From the NCBI GenBank assembly GCA_034717975.1, contig JAYEMF010000044.1:1-17549 (forward strand): a DNA stretch of 17,549 nt, written 5' to 3'. The notes beneath the pieces are model-generated. The model saw only the letters and a program-made list of their open reading frames with translations. It ran no database searches and was not told the DNA's origin. This document shows positions 1-17,549 of this stretch, piece after piece (within the stretch, counting starts at the first letter, position 1; each line of letters begins with the position of its first letter). The translations under genes and the position numbers were made by a program. Source of the stretch: Campylobacterota bacterium (lineage in GTDB: Bacteria > Campylobacterota > Campylobacteria > Campylobacterales > Sulfurimonadaceae).

Positions 1-122
1 ATACATGTCCGTGAGTCTGCGTTAGAACCTTGCCACCGTAGCCCTGCTACGCTGACAAGAACCTGCCTTGATCACGAAAATGTATGTAACGCTGATGATA
101 TCCAGGGTTTTTAGAGGTGCCC
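1..122. mobile_element. Palindromic MITE/REP-like element, truncated by the window start
   Basis: Nested inverted repeats centred at about 44: CGTAGC(37-42)/GCTACG(46-51), CTTGCCA(29-35)/TGACAAG(53-59, one mismatch), CGTGA(10-14)/TCACG(72-76), ATACAT(1-6)/ATGTAT(80-85). The right end TTTAGAGGTGCCC (110-122) is the exact reverse complement of 14432-14444. Mobility is inferred; no transposase is in the window. Confidence 0.5.
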
Positions 123-135
123 ATAAGGTTTCATC

Positions 136-8554: not shown

Positions 8555-9633
8555 AGACGTTAGAAGAGTGCCGAGAAACGATTGATTTTATTGATGATGA
8601 GGTGTTAAGACTGCTTAACAGGCGTATGCAGGTTGTTACCCGTGTGGGTGAGATCAAGCATGAAAGTGGTGGAGCGATTTACCGTCCGGAGCGTGAAAAA
8701 GCGATTATTGAGCGACTGATTGCATTGAGCAGAGATGAAAACGGTCTGCTCAATCAAGCCGCTATTGAAGCGATTTTTCTGGAAGTTTTCGCGACGGCAC
8801 GCAATATTGAACTTCCCGAGCGTGTAGCCTACCTTGGACCGGAAGGTACCTTTACGCATCAAGCTGCGGAGAGCCGTTTTGGTGCCATGAGCGAATATTT
8901 GGCAATGGGCTCGATCAATGCTGTGTTTCAGACCCTGGAATCTGGCAGAGCCAAATTTGGAGTTGTACCGATCGAGAGCCGGCGTGATGGTGTTGTGGGT
9001 GAGACACTGGACCTTTTGGCAAAAAGCAGTATCAGGATCGTTGCTGAACTCTATATGCCGATCCATATGGCCTTTGTAACAAAAGCCAACCATCTTAAAG
9101 AGCTGAAACGGATCTACTCCAAAGACAAAGGTTTCGGGCAGTGCCGTGAGTTTTTGCAGGAGCATGGTCTCGATACGATTGATCTTATCCCTGTCGAGTC
9201 GACAGCCAAAGCTGCTATCCTGGCTGCGGATGATCCCGAATCAGCGGCCATCTGTTCACACATTGCCGCCAAACTCTATGGTGTGCCGACCATGTTTGAA
9301 AATATCGAAGATGTTCATGACAATGCGACACGATTTTTTATCTTGAGTGATTTTAAAAACGGTATCAGCGGGGAGGATAAAACATCCATCCTGGTACGTC
9401 TGAAAGATGCTAAAGAGCCGGGTGCACTGGTTCACTTTCTACAGGATTTTGATGAAGAGAAGATCAACCTGAGCAAGATAGAGAGCCGTCCGTCGGGAGA
9501 GAACGATGGATTCAGTTACTGGTTCTTTATCGACTTTTTTGGGCATATCGATGATGCCAATGTTCAAAAAGTCCTGGCAAAACACACCGATGAGATGACA
9601 TGGCTTGGGAGCTACGTAAAGGGAGAACAATGA
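8551..9633 (+). CDS. pheA: Bifunctional chorismate mutase / prephenate dehydratase (P-protein)
   Basis: AroQ-type CM N-terminus ([14 protein letters not shown]), PDT domain [10 protein letters not shown] and NATRF, ACT domain PGAL...[13 protein letters not shown] overlap with the upstream gene. Confidence 0.96.
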
Positions 9634-10724
9634 AATTCAATCCGGAACTGGATGCGATTAAAACCTATGAAGCGGGCAAGCCGATAGAGCTGGTCGTCCG
9701 TGAGTTTGGTATAAAGCCAGATGAGATCGTCAAACTGGCAAGCAATGAGAATCCGTATGGATGTTCGCCGAAGGTCAAAGAAGCGGTCGGCAATATTGTT
9801 GCTAATATGGCCCTCTATCCGGATGATTCGATGCACAAGCTTAAAGAGGGGCTTTCCAAGCGTTTTGATGTGCATGAAGATGAAGTGATTATCGGTGCGG
9901 GCAGCGATCAGGTGATTGAGTTCGCCATGCATGCCAAGGCAAACAGCCAAAGTAAAATACTGATCAACAGCATTACTTTTGCAATGTATGAGATCTATGC
10001 ACGACATGTCGGTGCGGAAGTGATCCGTACCGCCTCGCGTACGCATGACCTTGATGAATTTTATGCCCTCTATCTGGAACATAAGCCTTCCATTATCTTT
10101 TTATGCACACCGAACAATCCGACCGGCGAGTCGGTTGATGCGGAGGCAGTGAAGGCCTTTATTGAAAAGATCGACAGCGAAACACTGGTCATTGTTGACG
10201 GTGCCTATATGGAATATACGCACTTTAAAGATCCAAGTAAAGCCGTAATGCCCCATGAACTGATAGAGCAGTTTGACAACGTGCTTTACCTGGGTACTTT
10301 TTCCAAAGCCTATGGACTGGGCGGTATGCGCATAGGTTACGGGATAGCTTCACGCGAGATCATCACAGCGCTCTATAAGCTTCGACCGCCGTTCAATATT
10401 ACGACACTTTCTCTTGAAGCGGCTTGCGTTGCACTGGAAGATGAAAGCTTTGTTCAAAGCTGTATTGCCAAAAATTTTGAAGAGATGGAACGCTATGAAC
10501 ATTTTGCCGCTGAGAACGGCATACGAATAATTGAAAGCTATACGAATTTCGTTACAATGTGTCTGAATAAAGGGCAAAACTCATCACTCTTAGCTGACGC
10601 ACTGTTAAAAAAAGGTATGATAATACGAGATTTAAAGGGCTATGGATTGAATGCGATTCGTGTGACAGTAGGGACGCCTGCACAGAATGATCGCTTCTTT
10701 GAACTGACTAAGCATTTATTATAA
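9630..10724 (+). CDS. hisC: Histidinol-phosphate aminotransferase
   Basis: [23 protein letters not shown] and [15 protein letters not shown] motifs. Start placed at ATG 9630 (SD GGAG 9622-9625, ATGA overlap with the pheA stop) rather than 9600. Confidence 0.96.
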
Positions 10725-10728
10725 ACAC

Positions 10729-10753
10729 GCTACTTGAACTAAGTCCAAGTAGC
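10729..10753. other. Hairpin immediately after the hisC stop
   Basis: Perfect 8-bp stem GCTACTTG(10729-10736)/CAAGTAGC(10746-10753). No U-tract follows, so it is not a classic terminator. Confidence 0.55.
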
Positions 10754-10831
10754 TACGCTATCCAGCGCTAACCAAGGGCACTGAACACACGTAGCCGCTG
10801 TGGCACCAAAGCTAGCCTCTAACGAGGCAGA
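10752..10831 (+). repeat. Structured intergenic element, copy A (upstream of fliF)
   Basis: 10794-10831 is 32/38 identical to 17313-17350. It contains TACGCT-atcc-AGCG and the hairpin GCCTC-TAAC-GAGGC (10815-10828). Confidence 0.75.
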
Positions 10832-10866
10832 AGACTTTTTTCAATGAAAAGAGTTTTGATTTTTTT
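10831..10866 (+). terminator. Weak intrinsic-terminator-like hairpin plus T-tract ahead of fliF
   Basis: 12-bp AU-rich stem 10831-10842/10846-10857 (2 G-U pairs) followed by T7 at 10860-10866. Confidence 0.35.
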
Positions 10867-10879
10867 ATAACGGGACAGA

Positions 10880-12604
10880 ATGGATTTTAAGGCACTTATT
10901 TCGCAGCTTGTCGTGCTTTACAGCAATTTAAGCAAAAATCAAAAGATCATCATCGGTGCTGCGATCGGTGGGATTGTCGCTTTTTTGGTTTTTCTTGTCC
11001 TGTATACCTCAAAAGCAAGCAGCAAAGACGGTTACCGTGTCCTGTTTGAATCCCTCTCCCCTTCTGATGCCGCTTTGGTCATCGAGCAACTAGAGAAAGA
11101 TAACATCACCTATCGTATTCCACGTGATAACGTCATTGAAGTTCCCAAAGATGTCGTTTATAAAGAGCGTATCGCTATGGCGTCACTGGGAATTCCAAAA
11201 GCCAAAGGTGCCGGATTTGAACTCTTTGACAAGCAGGAGTTCGGAGCGACACAGTTCGATCAAAATGTAAAATTTCTTCGTGCGCTTGAAGGGGAACTGG
11301 TGCATTCGATCGATGCACTTGCTCCGGTAGAGCGCTCAACGGTTAACCTCGCCATGCCGAAAGAGACGCTTTTTGTCTCTAAGGAAGTTGCTCCTACGGC
11401 TGCTGTTATGGTTAAACTGGTTCCCGGACGCGTGCTCACCAACCGTCAGATTCGGGGAATTAAAAATCTTGTAGCTTCGGCTGTTACAAAATTGACACCT
11501 GAAAATGTCGCACTGGTGAATGATGAGGGTGAGACCCTTGGCGGTGATGATGAATTTGCACAGATGGGTGAACTTTCCGTCATACAACAGAAGTTCAAAA
11601 CCCGTGAAGAGAGCAAACTCGAAAAGAAGATTGTCAATGTCCTTGCTCCCTTTATTGGCGGTAACGAGCGTGTTGTTGCCAAGGTGACCATTGATTACGA
11701 TTTCTCGCAGCGCAGTTCGACATCGGAGAAGTTTGATCCGGAAAATGTGGTCCGCAGTGAACAGTCACTCGAAGAGAAGCGTGAGGGGAGTAAGCCCAAA
11801 GAGGTAGGCGGTGTTCCTGGGACGGTGAGCAATATCGGTCCGGTAGAGGGGCTCGAATCCCAGCAGAGCAGCGAAACGTACAGCAAAAATACGGCAACAA
11901 CCAACTACGAAGTCTCCAAGACGGTCTCAACTACCAAGGGTGAGTTTGCAACTATCAAGCGTATGACAGCTGCTGTTGTTGTCGATGGCAAATACAAGAC
12001 GAAACTTGATGAAGATGGTAGTCCGACAGATGAGATGGAGTATGTAGCACTTGATGAGACACAGATGCAGGCCATTACTGCTCTGGTCCAGCAGAGTATT
12101 GGGATAGATGACGGGCGGGGTGATCTGGTCTCCGTTCGCAATTTTCAGTTTGATGTCTCCAGCAGTGCCATGGCACCGAGAGATTCGATCTCCAAAATCA
12201 CACAGATCAGTGAACGCTATCTGGCACCGTTTGCACCGGTGTTAAAATATCTGATGGTTGCGTTGATCCTTTTTATCGCATACAAAAAAGTGATCGCTCC
12301 GTTTGGCGAGCGTATGCTTGAGTTCAGCAAAGAAGAGGATGAGTCAAAACGGCCTCAACTTGAGATTGAGGATGATGAAGAGGAAGATCTTGTCGAGAAG
12401 GTTCAGCAGATGCGTAAAAAAGTGGAAGGTCAGCTCGGTATGGATGGCACCCTCAATGAGGATGAACTCAAGTATGATGTCCTGATCGAAAAAGTAAGAC
12501 ATGAAGTCGAAGAGCGTCCGGAAGAGATCGCAAGACTCTTTGAAGCACTTATACTTGAAGAGTCTGAAGGAAGTGAATCTGCAGCAGGCGGAGATCGATC
12601 ATGA
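10880..12604 (+). CDS. fliF: Flagellar MS-ring protein FliF
   Basis: 574 aa, two TM segments, GFELFDKQEFGATQFDQ, RALEGEL, VRSEQ, GGVPGTVSN and NYEVSKT motifs. Confidence 0.98.
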   Translation: MDFKALISQLVVLYSNLSKNQKIIIGAAIGGIVAFLVFLVLYTSKASSKDGYRVLFESLSPSDAALVIEQLEKDNITYRIPRDNVIEVPKDVVYKERIAMASLGIPKAKGAGFELFDKQEFGATQFDQNVKFLRALEGELVHSIDALAPVERSTVNLAMPKETLFVSKEVAPTAAVMVKLVPGRVLTNRQIRGIKNLVASAVTKLTPENVALVNDEGETLGGDDEFAQMGELSVIQQKFKTREESKLEKKIVNVLAPFIGGNERVVAKVTIDYDFSQRSSTSEKFDPENVVRSEQSLEEKREGSKPKEVGGVPGTVSNIGPVEGLESQQSSETYSKNTATTNYEVSKTVSTTKGEFATIKRMTAAVVVDGKYKTKLDEDGSPTDEMEYVALDETQMQAITALVQQSIGIDDGRGDLVSVRNFQFDVSSSAMAPRDSISKITQISERYLAPFAPVLKYLMVALILFIAYKKVIAPFGERMLEFSKEEDESKRPQLEIEDDEEEDLVEKVQQMRKKVEGQLGMDGTLNEDELKYDVLIEKVRHEVEERPEEIARLFEALILEESEGSESAAGGDRS

Positions 12605-14431: not shown

Positions 14432-14595
14432 GGGCACCTCTAAATTAGCATATGCTTAAGTGCGGCTTTGCAGCACGTGAGCTCTCTGCTGAAGATGTAT
14501 GTTCTGTGCCGTTTTATAGCATAGAATAGAACAGAGTGTTAGCGTAGTCAAAGGGGCATTGCTCCTTTGGCGTTAAAAGGGCAGATATGCCTATA
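14432..14595 (+). repeat. Hairpin-rich intergenic element between fliH and dxs (TIR-like left end plus divergent copy C of the structured motif)
   Basis: Starts with GGGCACCTCTAAA (reverse complement of 110-122). Contains the palindrome AGCATATGCT (14447-14456) and stems 14502-14509/14519-14526, 14547-14557/14561-14571 and GGGCA-GATA-TGCCT (14579-14592). Confidence 0.5.
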
Positions 14596-14621: not shown

Positions 14622-16442
14622 ATGGATATTTCATCATACTCTACTGAACAGTTGGAGACGTTATGCGGAGAGATCCGTGAACGTATTCTTGAAGTGGTCA
14701 GTACAAACGGAGGGCACTTAAGCTCGACACTCGGTGCAACAGAGCTTATTGTTGCCATGCATAAAGTGTTTAATCCGAAGCGAGACCCTTTTATCTTTGA
14801 TGTTTCGCATCAGGCTTATGCCCACAAATTGCTGACGGATCGCTGGGATACTTTTGCCAGTTTGCGTCAATTTGACGGGCTTTGCGGCTACACAAAACCA
14901 AGTGAATCGGATGCGGACTATTTCGTCGCAGGTCACAGCTCCACATCGATTTCTCTGGGTGTCGGTGCAGCCAAAGCGATTGCGCTTAAAGGGGAGCAGG
15001 AGAGTCGTATCCCTGTTGCCATGATCGGTGACGGCTCGATCAGTGCGGGTATGGCGTATGAAGCGATGAATGAGCTGGGTGATCGTAAATATCCGATGGT
15101 CATCATCCTCAATGACAATGAGATGAGCATCGCCAAGCCTATCGGTGCGATCAGCCGGATGCTCAGTTCTGCGATGGCAAGCCCATTCTATCAGAAATTC
15201 AAAAAGAGGACAGAATCATTTGTCGATAATTTTGGTGAAGGTGCGCACTATCTTGCCAAACGCTTTGAAGAGTCTTTCAAACTGATCACTCCGGGGATCA
15301 TGTTTGAAGAGATGGGGATCGAATACATAGGACCGGTTGACGGGCATGACCTGACAAGTCTGATTGAGACCTTTGAGATGGCCAGGCAGATGGGGAAACC
15401 GGTGATCATTCATGCCCAGACCATCAAAGGAAAAGGGTATAAAGTAGCTGAAGGGCAGCATGAACACTGGCATGGTGTCGGACCGTTTGATCGTGAAAGT
15501 GGAAGTACCAATAAGAAAAGCAGTGCGAAAAGTGCCACGCAGATATATGCCGATGCACTCTTGCACCTGGCCAACCATGACGAAAAAATAGTCGGTGCAA
15601 CAGCGGCTATGCCTAGTGGTACCGGACTCTCGAAACTGATGGATACTTATCCCGATCGTTTTTGGGACGTGGCGATCGCCGAGCAGCATGCAGTCACGTC
15701 GATGGCGGCGCTGGCTAAAGAGGGCTTCAAGCCGTTCGTTACAATTTACTCGACCTTTTTGCAGCGCGGTTATGATCAGATAATCCACGATACCTGTCTG
15801 ATGGATCTTCCTGTCGTCTTCGCCATGGACCGTGCCGGTATTGTGGGTGAAGATGGCGAAACGCATCAGGGAGTTTTCGACATCAGCTTTTTGCGAGCTA
15901 TTCCGAACATGACACTTTTTGCTCCGCGTGATGAGAAGTCAATGCATCAGGCAATCGGTTTTGCGGCTGAGTATCAGCATCCGTGTGCGGTACGTTATCC
16001 AAGAGGCAGCTTTACTGAGACAGAGCTGCCGGAGTCACAGCCTTTTGAGCTGGCCAAGTCACAGCTGCTTGTCTCAAATCCTGGTCAGATCCTCTTTATA
16101 GGTTATGGTAACGGTGTCGGACGGGCTGCCCAGACGATGGCCTTGATGGACCAGAAAGTCTCTCTGCTTGATCTGCGCTTTGTCAAACCGCTTGATAGTG
16201 ATATGCTGCGCCAGATGGCCGGGCAGCACTCTAAATGGTTTGTCTTCAGTGACAGTGCCAAGATGGGCGGGGTCGGAAGTGCCATTCTTGAGTTTCTTGC
16301 TGAAGAGGGCATTCGGGGGATTGATGTTGTCTCGTTTGAGTATGAAGATGAATTTATCACGCATGGCAACACTGCTGCGGTTGAAGCGTCACTCGGCTTA
16401 CTCCCTGAACAGTTGGCTCAGCGGGTTAACGCTTTAACATAA
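14622..16442 (+). CDS. dxs: 1-deoxy-D-xylulose-5-phosphate synthase
   Basis: GGHLSSTLG, DVSHQAYAHK, GHSSTSIS, TPP motif GDGS...LNDNEMSI, IAEQHA, YSTFLQR and DRAGIVGEDGETHQG motifs. Confidence 0.98.
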   Translation: MDISSYSTEQLETLCGEIRERILEVVSTNGGHLSSTLGATELIVAMHKVFNPKRDPFIFDVSHQAYAHKLLTDRWDTFASLRQFDGLCGYTKPSESDADYFVAGHSSTSISLGVGAAKAIALKGEQESRIPVAMIGDGSISAGMAYEAMNELGDRKYPMVIILNDNEMSIAKPIGAISRMLSSAMASPFYQKFKKRTESFVDNFGEGAHYLAKRFEESFKLITPGIMFEEMGIEYIGPVDGHDLTSLIETFEMARQMGKPVIIHAQTIKGKGYKVAEGQHEHWHGVGPFDRESGSTNKKSSAKSATQIYADALLHLANHDEKIVGATAAMPSGTGLSKLMDTYPDRFWDVAIAEQHAVTSMAALAKEGFKPFVTIYSTFLQRGYDQIIHDTCLMDLPVVFAMDRAGIVGEDGETHQGVFDISFLRAIPNMTLFAPRDEKSMHQAIGFAAEYQHPCAVRYPRGSFTETELPESQPFELAKSQLLVSNPGQILFIGYGNGVGRAAQTMALMDQKVSLLDLRFVKPLDSDMLRQMAGQHSKWFVFSDSAKMGGVGSAILEFLAEEGIRGIDVVSFEYEDEFITHGNTAAVEASLGLLPEQLAQRVNALT

Positions 16443-17215: not shown

Positions 17216-17254
17216 GGCTTATTATGTGACACGCAAAATGAGCAACACCACATT

Positions 17255-17350
17255 TACGCTTTAGCGTCGGTGGTATCGAAATTTAGTTTCAGAAGCCCAT
17301 TTTACTGCGCTTGCCGCTATGCCACTAAAGCTAGCCCCTGACGGGGCAGA
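17255..17350 (+). repeat. Structured intergenic element, copy B (upstream of ovoA)
   Basis: 17313-17350 is 32/38 identical to 10794-10831. It contains TACGCT-tt-AGCG and the hairpin GCCCC-TGAC-GGGGC (17334-17347), and is followed by a perfect 18-bp AT palindrome at 17356-17373. Confidence 0.75.
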
Positions 17351-17395
17351 TATATTTTTTAAAATTTTAAAAATATCTTACTGCAAGGAGTAGAT

Positions 17396-17549
17396 TTGAA
17401 TACCCTGCATACCATGCCGGTCACCCTGACCGGCGATCACCCTGAAGCAAAGCGTGAAGCGATCAGGGAGTACTTTCATAAAACTTACGATCTCTATGAA
17501 CGTCTTTTTGATCTCTTGGCAACGGATGAGGTTTTTTACGAAAAGTCAG
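17396..17549 (+). CDS. ovoA: 5-histidylcysteine sulfoxide synthase OvoA (ovothiol biosynthesis), N-terminal fragment running off the window
   Basis: Not in the ORF track. SD AAGGAG (17385-17390) then TTG at 17396. Translates MNTLHTMPVTLTGDHPEAKREAIREYFHKTYDLYERLFDLLATDEVFYEKS, resembling the OvoA N-terminus (KRxEIxxYFxxTxxxYExLF) that precedes the PLRHPLIFY motif. Confidence 0.8.
   Translation, partial: MNTLHTMPVTLTGDHPEAKREAIREYFHKTYDLYERLFDLLATDEVFYEKS

What the first reader, a model, noticed from the sequence alone, without database searches (positions are those of the whole stretch)
10752..10866. Repeated structured element with compensatory base pairs upstream of fliF (and ovoA): candidate undescribed cis-regulatory RNA or REP/MITE family
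Seen: GCCGCTGTGGCACCAAAGCTAGCCTCTAACGAGGCAGA (10794-10831) and GCCGCTATGCCACTAAAGCTAGCCCCTGACGGGGCAGA (17313-17350) differ at 6 of 38 positions. Two differences form one compensatory pair in the terminal stem (T-A in GCCTC/GAGGC, C-G in GCCCC/GGGGC) and one is in its loop. A fourth is matched by a change upstream: CAGCG(10763-67) pairs with CGCTG(10796-800), while TAGCG(17262-66) pairs with CGCTA(17315-19). That AGCG can instead pair with the CGCT just before it, so two mutually exclusive folds are possible. Both copies have the same orientation, end 48 and 45 nt before a start codon, and are followed by an AU-rich hairpin (with a T7 tract before fliF). Inference: the structure is under selection. 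It is either a switch-like 5'-leader RNA or a dispersed repeat. I do not recognise it as a named riboswitch or ribozyme.
Basis: partly seen in the sequence, partly recalled or inferred. Interest (0 to 1): 0.75.

Follow-up and report, generated by a model that had tools for sequence, protein, structure and literature searches.

The report
Dispersed three-hairpin intergenic repeat family
The structured sequence in front of fliF and ovoA is one copy of a roughly 80-base hairpin repeat scattered about a hundred times through this sulfur bacterium's genome in either direction, so it is selfish or structural repeat DNA and not a switch dedicated to those genes.

Summary
The two 38-mers are real (32/38 identical) and are the 3' halves of two copies of a dispersed repeat.

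**Census.** nhmmer finds 97 hits (about 96 elements) in the 2.52-Mb genome, 49 on the + strand and 48 on the - strand. Almost all are intergenic. Between co-directional genes, 29 lie in gene sense and 27 antisense.

**Anatomy.** TTGAACG, then hairpin 1, CTACGCT, a 3-bp mini-hairpin, ACTAAAGCT, hairpin 3, AGAG. Optional nested modules and often an AT-rich 3' hairpin are added.

**Structure.** The three stems covary strongly: 85.9% of cells paired against 67.8% in shuffles.

**Not a conserved leader.**
- A congener has hisC and fliF 19 nt apart.
- Source metagenomes hold an allele lacking the ovoA-side copy at about half the depth.
- Of 34 fliF loci in relatives, one carries a partial copy, on the opposite strand.

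**Distribution.** The 26-nt core occurs in 185 of 301 genomes of the family and in three neighbouring families. There is no Rfam match and no link to Y1/RAYT transposases.

**Unexpected.** The same module sits in helix P12 of RNase P RNA in many relatives, and its 33-nt sub-module lies in frame in hypB.

**Verdict.** An undescribed REP/BOX-like mosaic repeat; how it is mobilised is unknown.

The parts
10725..10759 (+). Copy 1, 5' part. The 5' motif is the TAAACACG variant of TTGAACG and overlaps the hisC stop codon at 10722-10724. Hairpin 1 spans 10729-10753: an 8-bp stem, an A.C mismatch, 2 bp and a 3-nt loop. The conserved linker CTACGCT follows at 10753-10759.
   Evidence: (nhmmer hit 10725-10785)
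10760..10792 (+). Nested 33-nt module B with its own hairpin.
   Evidence: (23 regex hits in the genome, 13 of them inside elements)
10793..10831 (+). Mini-hairpin GCC-GCTGT-GGC at 10794-10804, linker ACCAAAGCT, hairpin 3 at 10815-10828, then AGA.
   Evidence: (hit 10792-10836)
10831..10866 (+). Accessory AU-rich 12-bp hairpin (10831-10856) plus the T7 tract (10860-10866). It is part of the block that congener G001 lacks.
14532..14578 (-). Third, partial copy in the fliH-dxs spacer, on the opposite strand: hairpin 1 plus CTACGCT only.
17217..17382 (+). 166-nt block holding copy 2 and its AU-rich hairpin. In an alternative allele seen in all four source runs it is replaced by 10 other letters.
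   Evidence: joint 17216->17383
17226..17350 (+). Copy 2. The 5' motif is TGTGACACG. Hairpin 1 (17234-17304) is interrupted in its loop. Then CTGCGCT, the mini-hairpin GCC-GCTAT-GCC with one C.C mismatch, ACTAAAGCT, hairpin 3 at 17334-17347, and AGA.
   Evidence: (hit 17293-17355)
17246..17293 (+). Nested insert of about 47 nt in the loop of hairpin 1. Boundaries are accurate to about 2 nt.
17348..17378 (+). Accessory AU-rich hairpin after copy 2.

Best explanation
The feature is one member of a previously undescribed family of short, non-coding, mosaic hairpin repeats. It resembles REP/BIME, BOX or ERIC elements. It populates intergenic spacers of this Sulfurimonadaceae genome and many relatives.

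The basic unit of about 80 nt has three hairpins whose stem sequences vary with compensation. They are joined by almost invariant single-stranded linkers. Optional modules are nested into it, and an AT-rich hairpin often follows.

The copies before fliF and ovoA, and the partial copy before dxs, are lineage-specific insertions with no dedicated relation to those genes.

Shown here:
- copy number, both orientations and random context;
- covariation of the three stems;
- empty sites in a congener and within the source population;
- tandem amplification;
- nesting into hairpin loops, including helix P12 of RNase P RNA in relatives.

Inferred:
- The family propagates or persists as selfish DNA through a single-stranded, hairpin-folded intermediate that an unidentified trans-acting factor recognises at the conserved linkers.
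- Tandem arrays grow by slippage or unequal recombination.
- At hisC-fliF the element is probably just co-transcribed. At most it adds stable stem-loops and a weak hairpin-plus-U7 that could damp read-through.
For: - **Census:** 97 nhmmer hits, 49 on + and 48 on -.
- **Context:** tandem-same 29, tandem-anti 27, divergent 15, convergent 9, contig edge 9, in ORF 8. The background of spacers at least 40 nt long is 592, 263 and 153 (tandem, divergent, convergent).
- **Neighbouring gene ends:** the 5' side faces a gene start 42 times and a stop 38 times; the 3' side 44 and 36.
- **Covariation:** 19 pairs over 34 copies. 85.9% of cells are paired against 67.8% in shuffles (0 of 500 shuffles reach it). 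124 cells are changed on both sides against 39. Slid controls give 27-46%.
- **Empty sites between species:** in G001 the hisC TGA is 19 nt from the fliF ATG, and no element is found in any syntenic locus of G001 or G002.
- **Empty site within the population:** an allele skipping 17217-17382 occurs in all 4 runs. In X1 it has depth 38.1 against 28.8 for the filled form, and the two sum to the flank depth.
- **fliF loci of relatives:** 1 of 34 has a partial copy, on the opposite strand.
- **Distribution:** the core pattern (up to 2 mismatches) occurs in 185 of 301 family genomes and 15 of 23 genera, with 0 hits for the reversed control. It also occurs in three further families of the order.
- **Tandem arrays:** in G007 and at flhB.
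- **Nested inserts and RNase P:** for nesting; for the P12 insert in rnpB.
- **Strand asymmetry:** A.C at the conserved position in 28 of 34 copies. In the other hairpin-1 pairs A.C outnumbers G.T 24 to 5 (binomial p = 2.7e-4, though copies are not independent).
- **No known RNA family:**
Against: - **No mobilising enzyme was found.**
  - No Y1/RAYT gene is flanked by the element.
  - In genus g17 the element occurs in 64 of 66 genomes but Y1_Tnp in only 25 of 66.
- **No terminal inverted repeats and no target-site duplication were seen.**
- **Copies in this genome are old.** Median pairwise identity is 63%, and the nearest unlinked copy is at most 87% identical. Recent transposition is therefore not shown, and the population polymorphism could be a loss.
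- **The 26-nt linker is conserved more than expected for junk.** It is near-invariant across genera whose FliF proteins are only 50-72% identical, and it persists inside rnpB. It may have a host function.
- **Two flagellar operon starts carry same-sense copies** (fliF, and flhB with 4 copies). I did not annotate all neighbouring genes, so a mild functional enrichment is not excluded.
- **There are no RNA data.**
Confidence: 0.8

Rival explanations
1. Cis-regulatory 5'-leader RNA, of riboswitch or attenuator type, controlling fliF and ovoA through two mutually exclusive folds.
For: - Both copies are in gene sense.
- They end 45-48 nt before a start codon.
- A hairpin follows each, with T7 before fliF.
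- flhB, another flagellar gene, has same-sense copies upstream.
Against: - Orientation is random genome-wide.
- Distances to start codons are typical of the family.
- The element is absent at the orthologous hisC-fliF junction in G001 and in 33 of 34 fliF loci of relatives.
- The ovoA copy is missing in about half of the source population.
- The alternative pairing uses non-homologous nested inserts.
- The mRNA-sense strand carries a conserved A.C mismatch in hairpin 1.
- There is no Rfam match.
Confidence: 0.03
2. A host-exapted structural role on top of selfish origin. As with E. coli REP/BIME elements, the hairpins in transcripts protect upstream mRNA 3' ends or attenuate read-through between genes. 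Such a role works in either orientation because hairpins fold on both strands.
For: - Copies sit 8-12 nt (median) after stop codons and sometimes overlap them.
- The hairpins are stable (z = -2.79).
- The 3' flank folds better than random intergenic 48-mers: median -6.8 against -5.3 kcal/mol, Mann-Whitney p = 0.004, n = 38 against 1000.
- The fliF copy carries a hairpin plus T7.
Against: - Copies face gene starts as often as stops, and 15 lie between divergent genes.
- The consensus terminator scan finds no plus-strand terminator at copy 1.
- There are no expression data.
- The invariant single-stranded linkers are not explained by a generic hairpin role.
Confidence: 0.25
3. A REPIN/RAYT-type or IS200/IS605-derived (PATE-like) element mobilised as single-stranded DNA by a Y1 (HUH) transposase.
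For: - The genome has 6 Y1_Tnp matches, 5 of them RAYT-like.
- The hairpins are strand-asymmetric.
- The 5' motif is conserved.
- Inverted doublets exist in the rnpB P12 of G002 and G080.
Against: - No Y1 gene locus contains the element at nhmmer E<=1. This covers 6 loci in the own genome and 5 in G007 and G009. The Y1 flanks share no dispersed repeat.
- 3 of 5 element-bearing relatives have no Y1_Tnp.
- In genus g17 the element occurs in 64 of 66 genomes against Y1_Tnp in 25 of 66.
- Only 1 inverted pair is found among about 96 elements in this genome.
- Orientation shows no link to local GC skew (Fisher p = 0.53).
Confidence: 0.1
4. The module is primarily a functional RNA or protein-binding domain, an expansion of helix P12 of RNase P RNA. 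The dispersed genomic copies are secondary derivatives of it.
For: - 19 of 95 rnpB genes in the family exceed 400 nt.
- The element is detected in P12 in 16 of 22 sequences examined: antisense only in 12, sense only in 2, both in 2.
- It always abuts the 3' strand of P12.
- In G001 and G015 the only strict-pattern hits lie inside rnpB.
- The antisense strand turns the conserved A.C into a G.U wobble.
Against: - The own genome has about 96 copies but a short P12 without the module.
- Presence in P12 is patchy within genera.
- P12 is a variable, dispensable helix (established knowledge of bacterial RNase P, recalled).
- Nested insertion into other hairpin loops suggests loop-targeted insertion rather than an origin in rnpB.
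Confidence: 0.1

Closest known systems
REP/BIME elements of Enterobacteria and REPIN-RAYT systems of Pseudomonas and others (recalled knowledge)
   Same: - Short intergenic hairpin-forming repeats present in tens to hundreds of copies.
- Both orientations.
- Mosaic combination of modules.
- Stems maintained by compensatory changes.
- Close packing against stop codons.
   Different: - The unit is longer (about 80 nt) with three hairpins.
- The invariant part is the single-stranded linkers, while stem sequences are hypervariable.
- Copies are mostly singletons or direct tandem arrays, not inverted doublets.
- No RAYT gene is flanked by them, and there is no co-occurrence with Y1 transposases.
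BOX elements of Streptococcus pneumoniae, modular boxA-boxB(n)-boxC (recalled knowledge)
   Same: - Modular A-B-C architecture with an optional, tandemly repeatable 33-nt middle module.
- About 100 copies.
- Intergenic.
- Stable predicted structure.
- No encoded transposase.
   Different: - A different phylum.
- No sequence relationship was tested or expected.
- Here B nests at two different sites. B also occurs in frame in coding DNA.
Rickettsia palindromic elements (RPE) (recalled knowledge)
   Same: Small palindromic repeats are tolerated inside functional genes. Here the 33-nt B module lies in frame in hypB, and the whole element lies in the RNase P RNA gene of relatives.
   Different: - Most copies here are intergenic.
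- Sizes and sequences are unrelated.
- The mechanism is unknown in both cases.
Short tandem repeats in helix P12 of cyanobacterial RNase P RNA (recalled knowledge; not found in my literature searches)
   Same: A genome-wide repeat family also occupies the variable P12 helix of RNase P RNA.
   Different: Here the insert is a structured module of 80-230 nt, sometimes an inverted doublet, and not heptanucleotide repeats.
Riboswitches and transcription-attenuating 5' leaders
   Same: Covarying stems, conserved unpaired nucleotides and, in these two copies, a position upstream of a start codon.
   Different: They fail on orientation, on conservation at orthologous positions and on gene association (see Membership tests).

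Membership tests
cis-regulatory 5'-leader RNA / riboswitch | Consistent sense orientation upstream of the regulated genes | tested here: not met
   49 copies on + and 48 on -. Between co-directional genes 29 are in gene sense and 27 antisense. The 3' end faces a start 44 times and a stop 36 times.
cis-regulatory 5'-leader RNA / riboswitch | Conserved at orthologous positions in relatives | tested here: not met
   G001 has hisC and fliF 19 nt apart. No element is found in the syntenic loci of G001 or G002. Of 34 fliF loci, 1 has a partial copy on the opposite strand. Copy 2 is polymorphic within the population.
cis-regulatory 5'-leader RNA / riboswitch | Association with one functional class of genes | tested here: inconclusive
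   The neighbours seen are diverse: hisC/fliF, fliH/dxs, pgeF/ovoA, nadC/flhB, and rnpB in relatives. I did not annotate the neighbours of all 96 copies.
cis-regulatory 5'-leader RNA / riboswitch | Match to a curated RNA family | tested here: not met
   Rfam 15 gives 0 hits at gathering score in the window. At E<=10 there are only chance hits of 9-17 bits. In 5 relatives' loci only RNase P matched.
REP / REPIN-RAYT | Many short intergenic palindromic repeats | tested here: met
   97 hits. 8 were scored as inside an ORF, mostly short dubious ORFs.
REP / REPIN-RAYT | Replicative unit is an inverted doublet (REPIN) | tested here: not met
   Only 1 overlapping inverted pair (contig C39) occurs among about 96 elements. 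Doublets are seen only in the rnpB P12 of G002 and G080.
REP / REPIN-RAYT | A RAYT (Y1 transposase) gene flanked by the repeats and co-occurring with them | tested here: not met
   0 of 11 Y1 loci contain the element. In genus g17 the element occurs in 64 of 66 genomes against Y1_Tnp in 25 of 66.
MITE | Terminal inverted repeats and target-site duplication | tested here: not met
   In the alignments the 5' end (TTGAACG) and the 3' end (GCAGAG) are not inverted repeats of each other. At the one filled/empty pair, 166 nt are replaced by 10 other letters with no duplication.
MITE | A related autonomous IS with the same ends | tested here: inconclusive
   None was found among the Y1 loci. No match was found in the plasmid or phage collections. 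Other transposase families and ISfinder were not searched.
Intrinsic terminator | GC-rich stem directly followed by a U tract | tested here: not met
   The scan finds no plus-strand terminator at copy 1. Hairpin 3 is followed by AGAG, not by a U run, in the family alignment. The AU hairpin plus T7 is specific to this copy.
Mosaic structured repeats (BOX/BIME-like), functional analogy only | Separable modules that occur alone, combined and in tandem | tested here: met
   Hairpin-1-only copies are common. B occurs inside elements 13 times, and in tandem at C85 and C106. Forms with inserts measure 115-162 nt.

The most novel reading that the evidence does not exclude
The element is more than junk. 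That factor would insert or maintain the module in the loops of existing hairpins. This would be a transposase-independent, or at least Y1-independent, hairpin-loop-targeting system. It would explain three things together: the nesting of inserts in the element's own loops, the colonisation of helix P12 of RNase P RNA across many Sulfurimonadaceae genera, and the in-frame 33-nt insertions in hypB. In the RNase P context the module may have become a working expansion domain.
Probability: 0.15. Interest if true: 0.7.

Novelty: new member of a known kind. Interest (0 to 1): 0.42.

Why it matters
- **Annotation.** It removes a false riboswitch or leader candidate. It also explains many 'structured, covarying' intergenic hits that RNA-motif scans of Sulfurimonadaceae and neighbouring families will keep producing.
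- **A useful repeat family for study.** Stems covary while linkers are frozen, and the family spans at least four families of the order.
- **It sits inside an essential ribozyme gene and a nickel-chaperone gene.** That makes it a tractable case for asking how small hairpin repeats spread without an obvious transposase, and how they are tolerated or co-opted in functional RNAs and proteins.
- **A strain marker.** The within-population presence/absence allele can be used to distinguish strains.

Tried and rejected
- **Rfam.** Nothing at gathering score. Only chance hits at E<=10.
- **RNA expression.** No RNA holder is listed for this DNA, so expression could not be examined.
- **RAYT or Y1 transposase link.**
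  - No element lies near any Y1 gene.
  - The Y1 flanks contain no dispersed repeat.
  - There is no co-occurrence with Y1 genes.
- **The AT-rich 3' hairpin as a sequence family of its own (AGAGTTCTT..AAGAACTCT).**
  - The regex census gave 60 hits against 53 for a reversed-arm control, which is noise.
  - Only the weaker statement survives, that the 3' flank folds better than random spacers.
- **Orientation against local GC skew.** No relation (Fisher p = 0.53). Against the local majority gene strand: 44 anti and 28 same, which I do not treat as significant.
- **Plasmid and phage collections.** No match.
- **Earlier findings of this scan.** Nothing relevant.
- **Literature.**
  - Sulfurimonas with 'repetitive extragenic palindromic' gave 1 paper. 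I saw one passage, a table listing S. gotlandica with generic palindrome counts.
  - Sulfurimonas with 'intergenic repeat' gave 0 papers.
  - Sulfurimonas with 'miniature inverted-repeat' gave 1 irrelevant paper, seen in the listing only.
  - RNase P, P12 and repeat terms gave 18 papers. I read none beyond the listing, and none was evidently relevant.
- **Integron attC, CRISPR repeat, small ribozyme and tRNA-like readings.** I considered these by inspection only and dropped them. There are no cassette arrays, no spacer structure and no matching core motifs. They were not formally tested beyond Rfam.
- **Target-site rules from the filled and empty alleles.** The 10 replacing letters give no clear duplication or microhomology.
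Full report
**Observation**

The window is the first 17,549 nt of contig C44 of a 2.52-Mb, 149-contig genome. Its FliF is 50-72% identical to the FliF proteins of Sulfurimonadaceae and Campylobacterales MAGs.

The gene order is: tal, pilT, rplY, pth, lptG, lysA, a HAD hydrolase, pheA, hisC (9600-10724), fliF (10880-12604), fliG, fliH, dxs (14622-16442), pgeF on the minus strand, and the start of ovoA (TTG at 17396).

The quoted 38-mers are at the stated coordinates and differ at 6 of 38 positions. The short complementary pentamers, the 48- and 45-nt gaps to the start codons, the AU-rich hairpins and the T7 tract are all present.

**What the 38-mer belongs to**

A short-word BLAST of both regions against the genome showed that each part recurs on many contigs, in both orientations and in different combinations. 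Four rounds of nhmmer, seeded with 16 regex-selected copies, converged on 97 hits at E<=0.01. That is about 96 elements, because window copy 1 is split in two by a nested insert.

Forty hits are full length. Thirty-one of these are the basic form of 70-91 nt. Nine carry inserts and measure 107-162 nt. Many other hits are hairpin-1-only fragments. One of them is a third, minus-strand copy in the window at 14532-14578.

The unit reads, in order:
- TTGAACG;
- hairpin 1, with an 8-bp stem, a conserved A.C mismatch, 2 bp and an AAA loop;
- CTACGCT(N);
- a mini-hairpin, GCC-GCTRT-GGC;
- ACTAAAGCT;
- hairpin 3, with a 5-6-bp stem and a 4-nt loop;
- AGAG.

**Structure**

I aligned 34 copies, 28 from this genome and 6 from five other genomes, chosen as full-length copies without inserts. 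The three hairpins give these figures:

| Measure | Observed | Shuffled control |
|---|---|---|
| Cells forming a standard pair | 85.9% | 67.8% (0 of 500 shuffles reach it) |
| Cells changed on both sides | 124 | 39 |
| Covariation score | 0.494 | 0.180 |
| Paired after sliding the partner by 1-3 columns | - | 27-46% |

The copies are related, so these figures are not probabilities. The slid controls keep relatedness and are still far lower.

At that pair the 34 copies show C-G 12, U-A 12, A-U 2, wobble 3 and unpaired 5.

- CAGCG (10763-67) lies in a 33-nt nested module B (10760-10792) that folds on itself.
- TAGCG (17262-66) lies in an unrelated nested insert of about 47 nt in the loop of hairpin 1 of copy 2. 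That insert is shared only with the copy on C108.
- Most copies have neither insert.
- The matched G/A is the variable R of the GCTRT loop.

So the two-fold 'switch' has no comparative support.

**Context**

Orientation is 49 on + and 48 on -. The contexts are below.

| Context | Copies |
|---|---|
| Between co-directional genes, gene sense | 29 |
| Between co-directional genes, antisense | 27 |
| Between divergent genes | 15 |
| Between convergent genes | 9 |
| At contig edges | 9 |
| Overlapping (mostly dubious, short) ORFs | 8 |

The gene map was my own greedy ORF map, which covers 90.6% of the genome as coding.

The 5' end faces a gene start 42 times and a stop 38 times. The 3' end faces a start 44 times and a stop 36 times. 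Elements sit 8-12 nt (median) from stops and 38-54 nt from starts.

The 3' flank folds somewhat better than random spacers: median -6.8 against -5.3 kcal/mol, p = 0.004. An attempt to define that hairpin as its own sequence family was at noise level.

**Orthologous and population comparisons**

The two congeners G001 and G002 share synteny with the window at about 70-74% nucleotide identity.
- In G001 the hisC stop codon is 19 nt from the fliF ATG. The whole block 10725-10866, including the AU hairpin and T7, is therefore an insertion in this lineage.
- nhmmer finds no element in any of the ten syntenic loci.
- Of 34 fliF loci from relatives, 32 have at least 298 nt of upstream sequence. Only one has a hit, which is partial, on the opposite strand and at E = 2.6e-5.

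I laid the contigs of four metagenome runs that hold this DNA on the window.
- Copy 1 is bridged without variation.
- A joined form skips 17217-17382 and has 10 other letters in their place. It occurs in all four runs.
- In X1 the empty form has depth 38.1 and the filled form 28.8. In X2 the figures are 21 and 19.6. In each case the two sum to the flank depth.
- In X3 and X4 only the empty form was assembled.

Copy 2 is therefore a presence/absence polymorphism among near-identical strains. Its direction, gain or loss, is unknown. No near-identical donor copy exists in this genome: the nearest unlinked copies are at most 87% identical and the family median is 63%.

**Distribution**

I searched for the 26-nt linker pattern with up to 2 mismatches. 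A reversed-pattern control gave 0 hits everywhere.

| Sample | Genomes with a match |
|---|---|
| First set of relatives | 22 of 61 |
| The family | 185 of 301, in 15 of 23 genera (g17 64/66, g2 80/142) |
| High-quality genomes of the order | 17 of 251 |

In the order-wide sample, matches outside the own family were f23 6/10, f8 1/1 and f4 1/3. The two largest families had none: f12 0/105 and f26 0/81. Counts per genome range from 0 to 74.

G007 holds tandem arrays with periods of about 71 and 103 nt. There is no match in the plasmid or phage collections and none in Rfam. I found no description in four literature searches.

**Mobilisation**

The obvious candidate is a RAYT or IS200-type Y1 transposase. 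It is not supported.
- The genome has six Y1_Tnp matches. None of these loci, and none of five in G007 and G009, contains the element. Their flanks share no dispersed repeat.
- Three of five element-bearing relatives have no Y1_Tnp.
- In genus g17 the element occurs in 64 of 66 genomes but Y1_Tnp in only 25 of 66.
- There are no terminal inverted repeats and no visible target duplication.
- Orientation is unrelated to local GC skew.

What can be said is structural.
- Inserts nest in hairpin loops or linkers.
- Arrays expand in tandem.
- Hairpin 1 is strand-asymmetric. The conserved mismatch is A.C in 28 of 34 copies. Among the other hairpin-1 pairs, A.C or C.A outnumber G.T 24 to 5.
- On the complementary strand these positions are wobble pairs. 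The better-folding strand, whether as ssDNA or RNA, is therefore the one opposite to the fliF and ovoA mRNA sense.
- Hairpin 3 shows no such bias: 11 G.T against 6 A.C.

**RNase P RNA**

An E-value Rfam scan of relatives' loci showed that an element pair in G002 lies inside the RNase P RNA gene. That gene is 545 nt long, and about 218 nt replace the loop of helix P12. The insert consists of two copies in inverted orientation. This genome's own rnpB is 322 nt, with a 4-bp P12 capped by a GCAA loop.

I then scanned 121 genomes of the family.
- 95 have rnpB above the cut-off.
- 19 of these are longer than 400 nt.

Of 22 rnpB sequences examined (20 fetched, plus the own gene and G002), nhmmer finds the element in P12 in 16. 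It is antisense only in 12, sense only in 2, and present as both in 2. By eye two more are diverged copies. The antisense copy always abuts the 3' strand of P12. In G001 and G015 the only strict-pattern hits in the genome lie in rnpB.

Either P12 was colonised early and the module retained, or its loop is a preferred target. I cannot tell which.

**Other occurrences**

- Module B occurs twice in frame in the His-rich N-terminus of HypB (TIGR00073, 274.8 bits; the family match starts at residue 56).
- Module B occurs four times in the N-terminal part of another ORF.
- Upstream of flhB there is a tandem array of four units. Each unit is an element plus the flhB ribosome-binding site and first nine codons.

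**Conclusion**

The finding is a real, structured and selected sequence. It is a copy of a dispersed mosaic hairpin repeat and not a leader dedicated to fliF or ovoA.

Its likely effect at hisC-fliF is passive. It separates two genes that are adjacent in a congener. It adds stable stem-loops and a weak hairpin-U7 to the transcript. This effect is inferred and untested.

The kind is known (REP/BIME, BOX, ERIC, RPE). This family appears undescribed, and how it is mobilised is open.

Noticed in passing
L045:1270-1814 (-) = G002 rnpB; also L110-L125 (rnpB of 16 relatives); own rnpB at L058:1501-1822: The same repeat module sits in the loop of helix P12 of the RNase P RNA gene in many Sulfurimonadaceae. 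19 of 95 rnpB genes exceed 400 nt, and the element is detected in 16 of 22 examined. It is mostly antisense to rnpB, and G002 and G080 carry an inverted doublet. This genome's own rnpB has a short P12 without it.
   Followed up: partly
G000 contig C106:55431-56237 (L133; N-terminus in L090): hypB (TIGR00073, 274.8 bits) carries two in-frame 33-nt B modules in its N-terminal His-rich region. They encode TEHTHPVQT(S/R)G repeats and match the intergenic B consensus at about 31 of 33 positions.
   Followed up: partly
G000 contig C85:6971-8080 (L134, L091): An ORF with four tandem B-module units (VEHTHPTLTNG-like) lies ahead of a lipoprotein-type signal sequence. Only weak PDZ-like matches were found, and the true start codon is uncertain.
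   Followed up: no
G000 contig C130, L130:1145-1895: A tandem array of four units lies upstream of flhB. Each unit is an element plus the flhB ribosome-binding site and first nine codons (MADDQEKTE), and the array ends in the real flhB (L130:1895-2950). Runs of N interrupt the array.
   Followed up: partly
window 1-130: A different dispersed repeat. This stretch matches dozens of places in congeners G001 and G002 at 80-90% identity. I did not characterise it.
   Followed up: no
window 17231-17287 and G000 contig C108:9013-9102 (L092): The insert of about 47 nt nested in the hairpin-1 loop of copy 2 is itself a small repeat. It is shared with one other copy here and has hits in G001 and G002.
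   Followed up: no
L001-L006 (G000 contigs C57, C146, C113, C46, C120): There are six Y1_Tnp matches. One is IS200-like with an in-frame TAG. Five are longer RAYT-like genes of 219-348 aa, and some are duplicated next to each other on C46 and C146. None is associated with the repeat studied here.
   Followed up: partly
L050:1469-1763 (G007 contig C3): G007 holds at least 74 core-pattern copies. Many form head-to-tail arrays with periods of about 71 and 103 nt, in which hairpin 3 is truncated. Four of its five sampled congeners have no copies.
   Followed up: no
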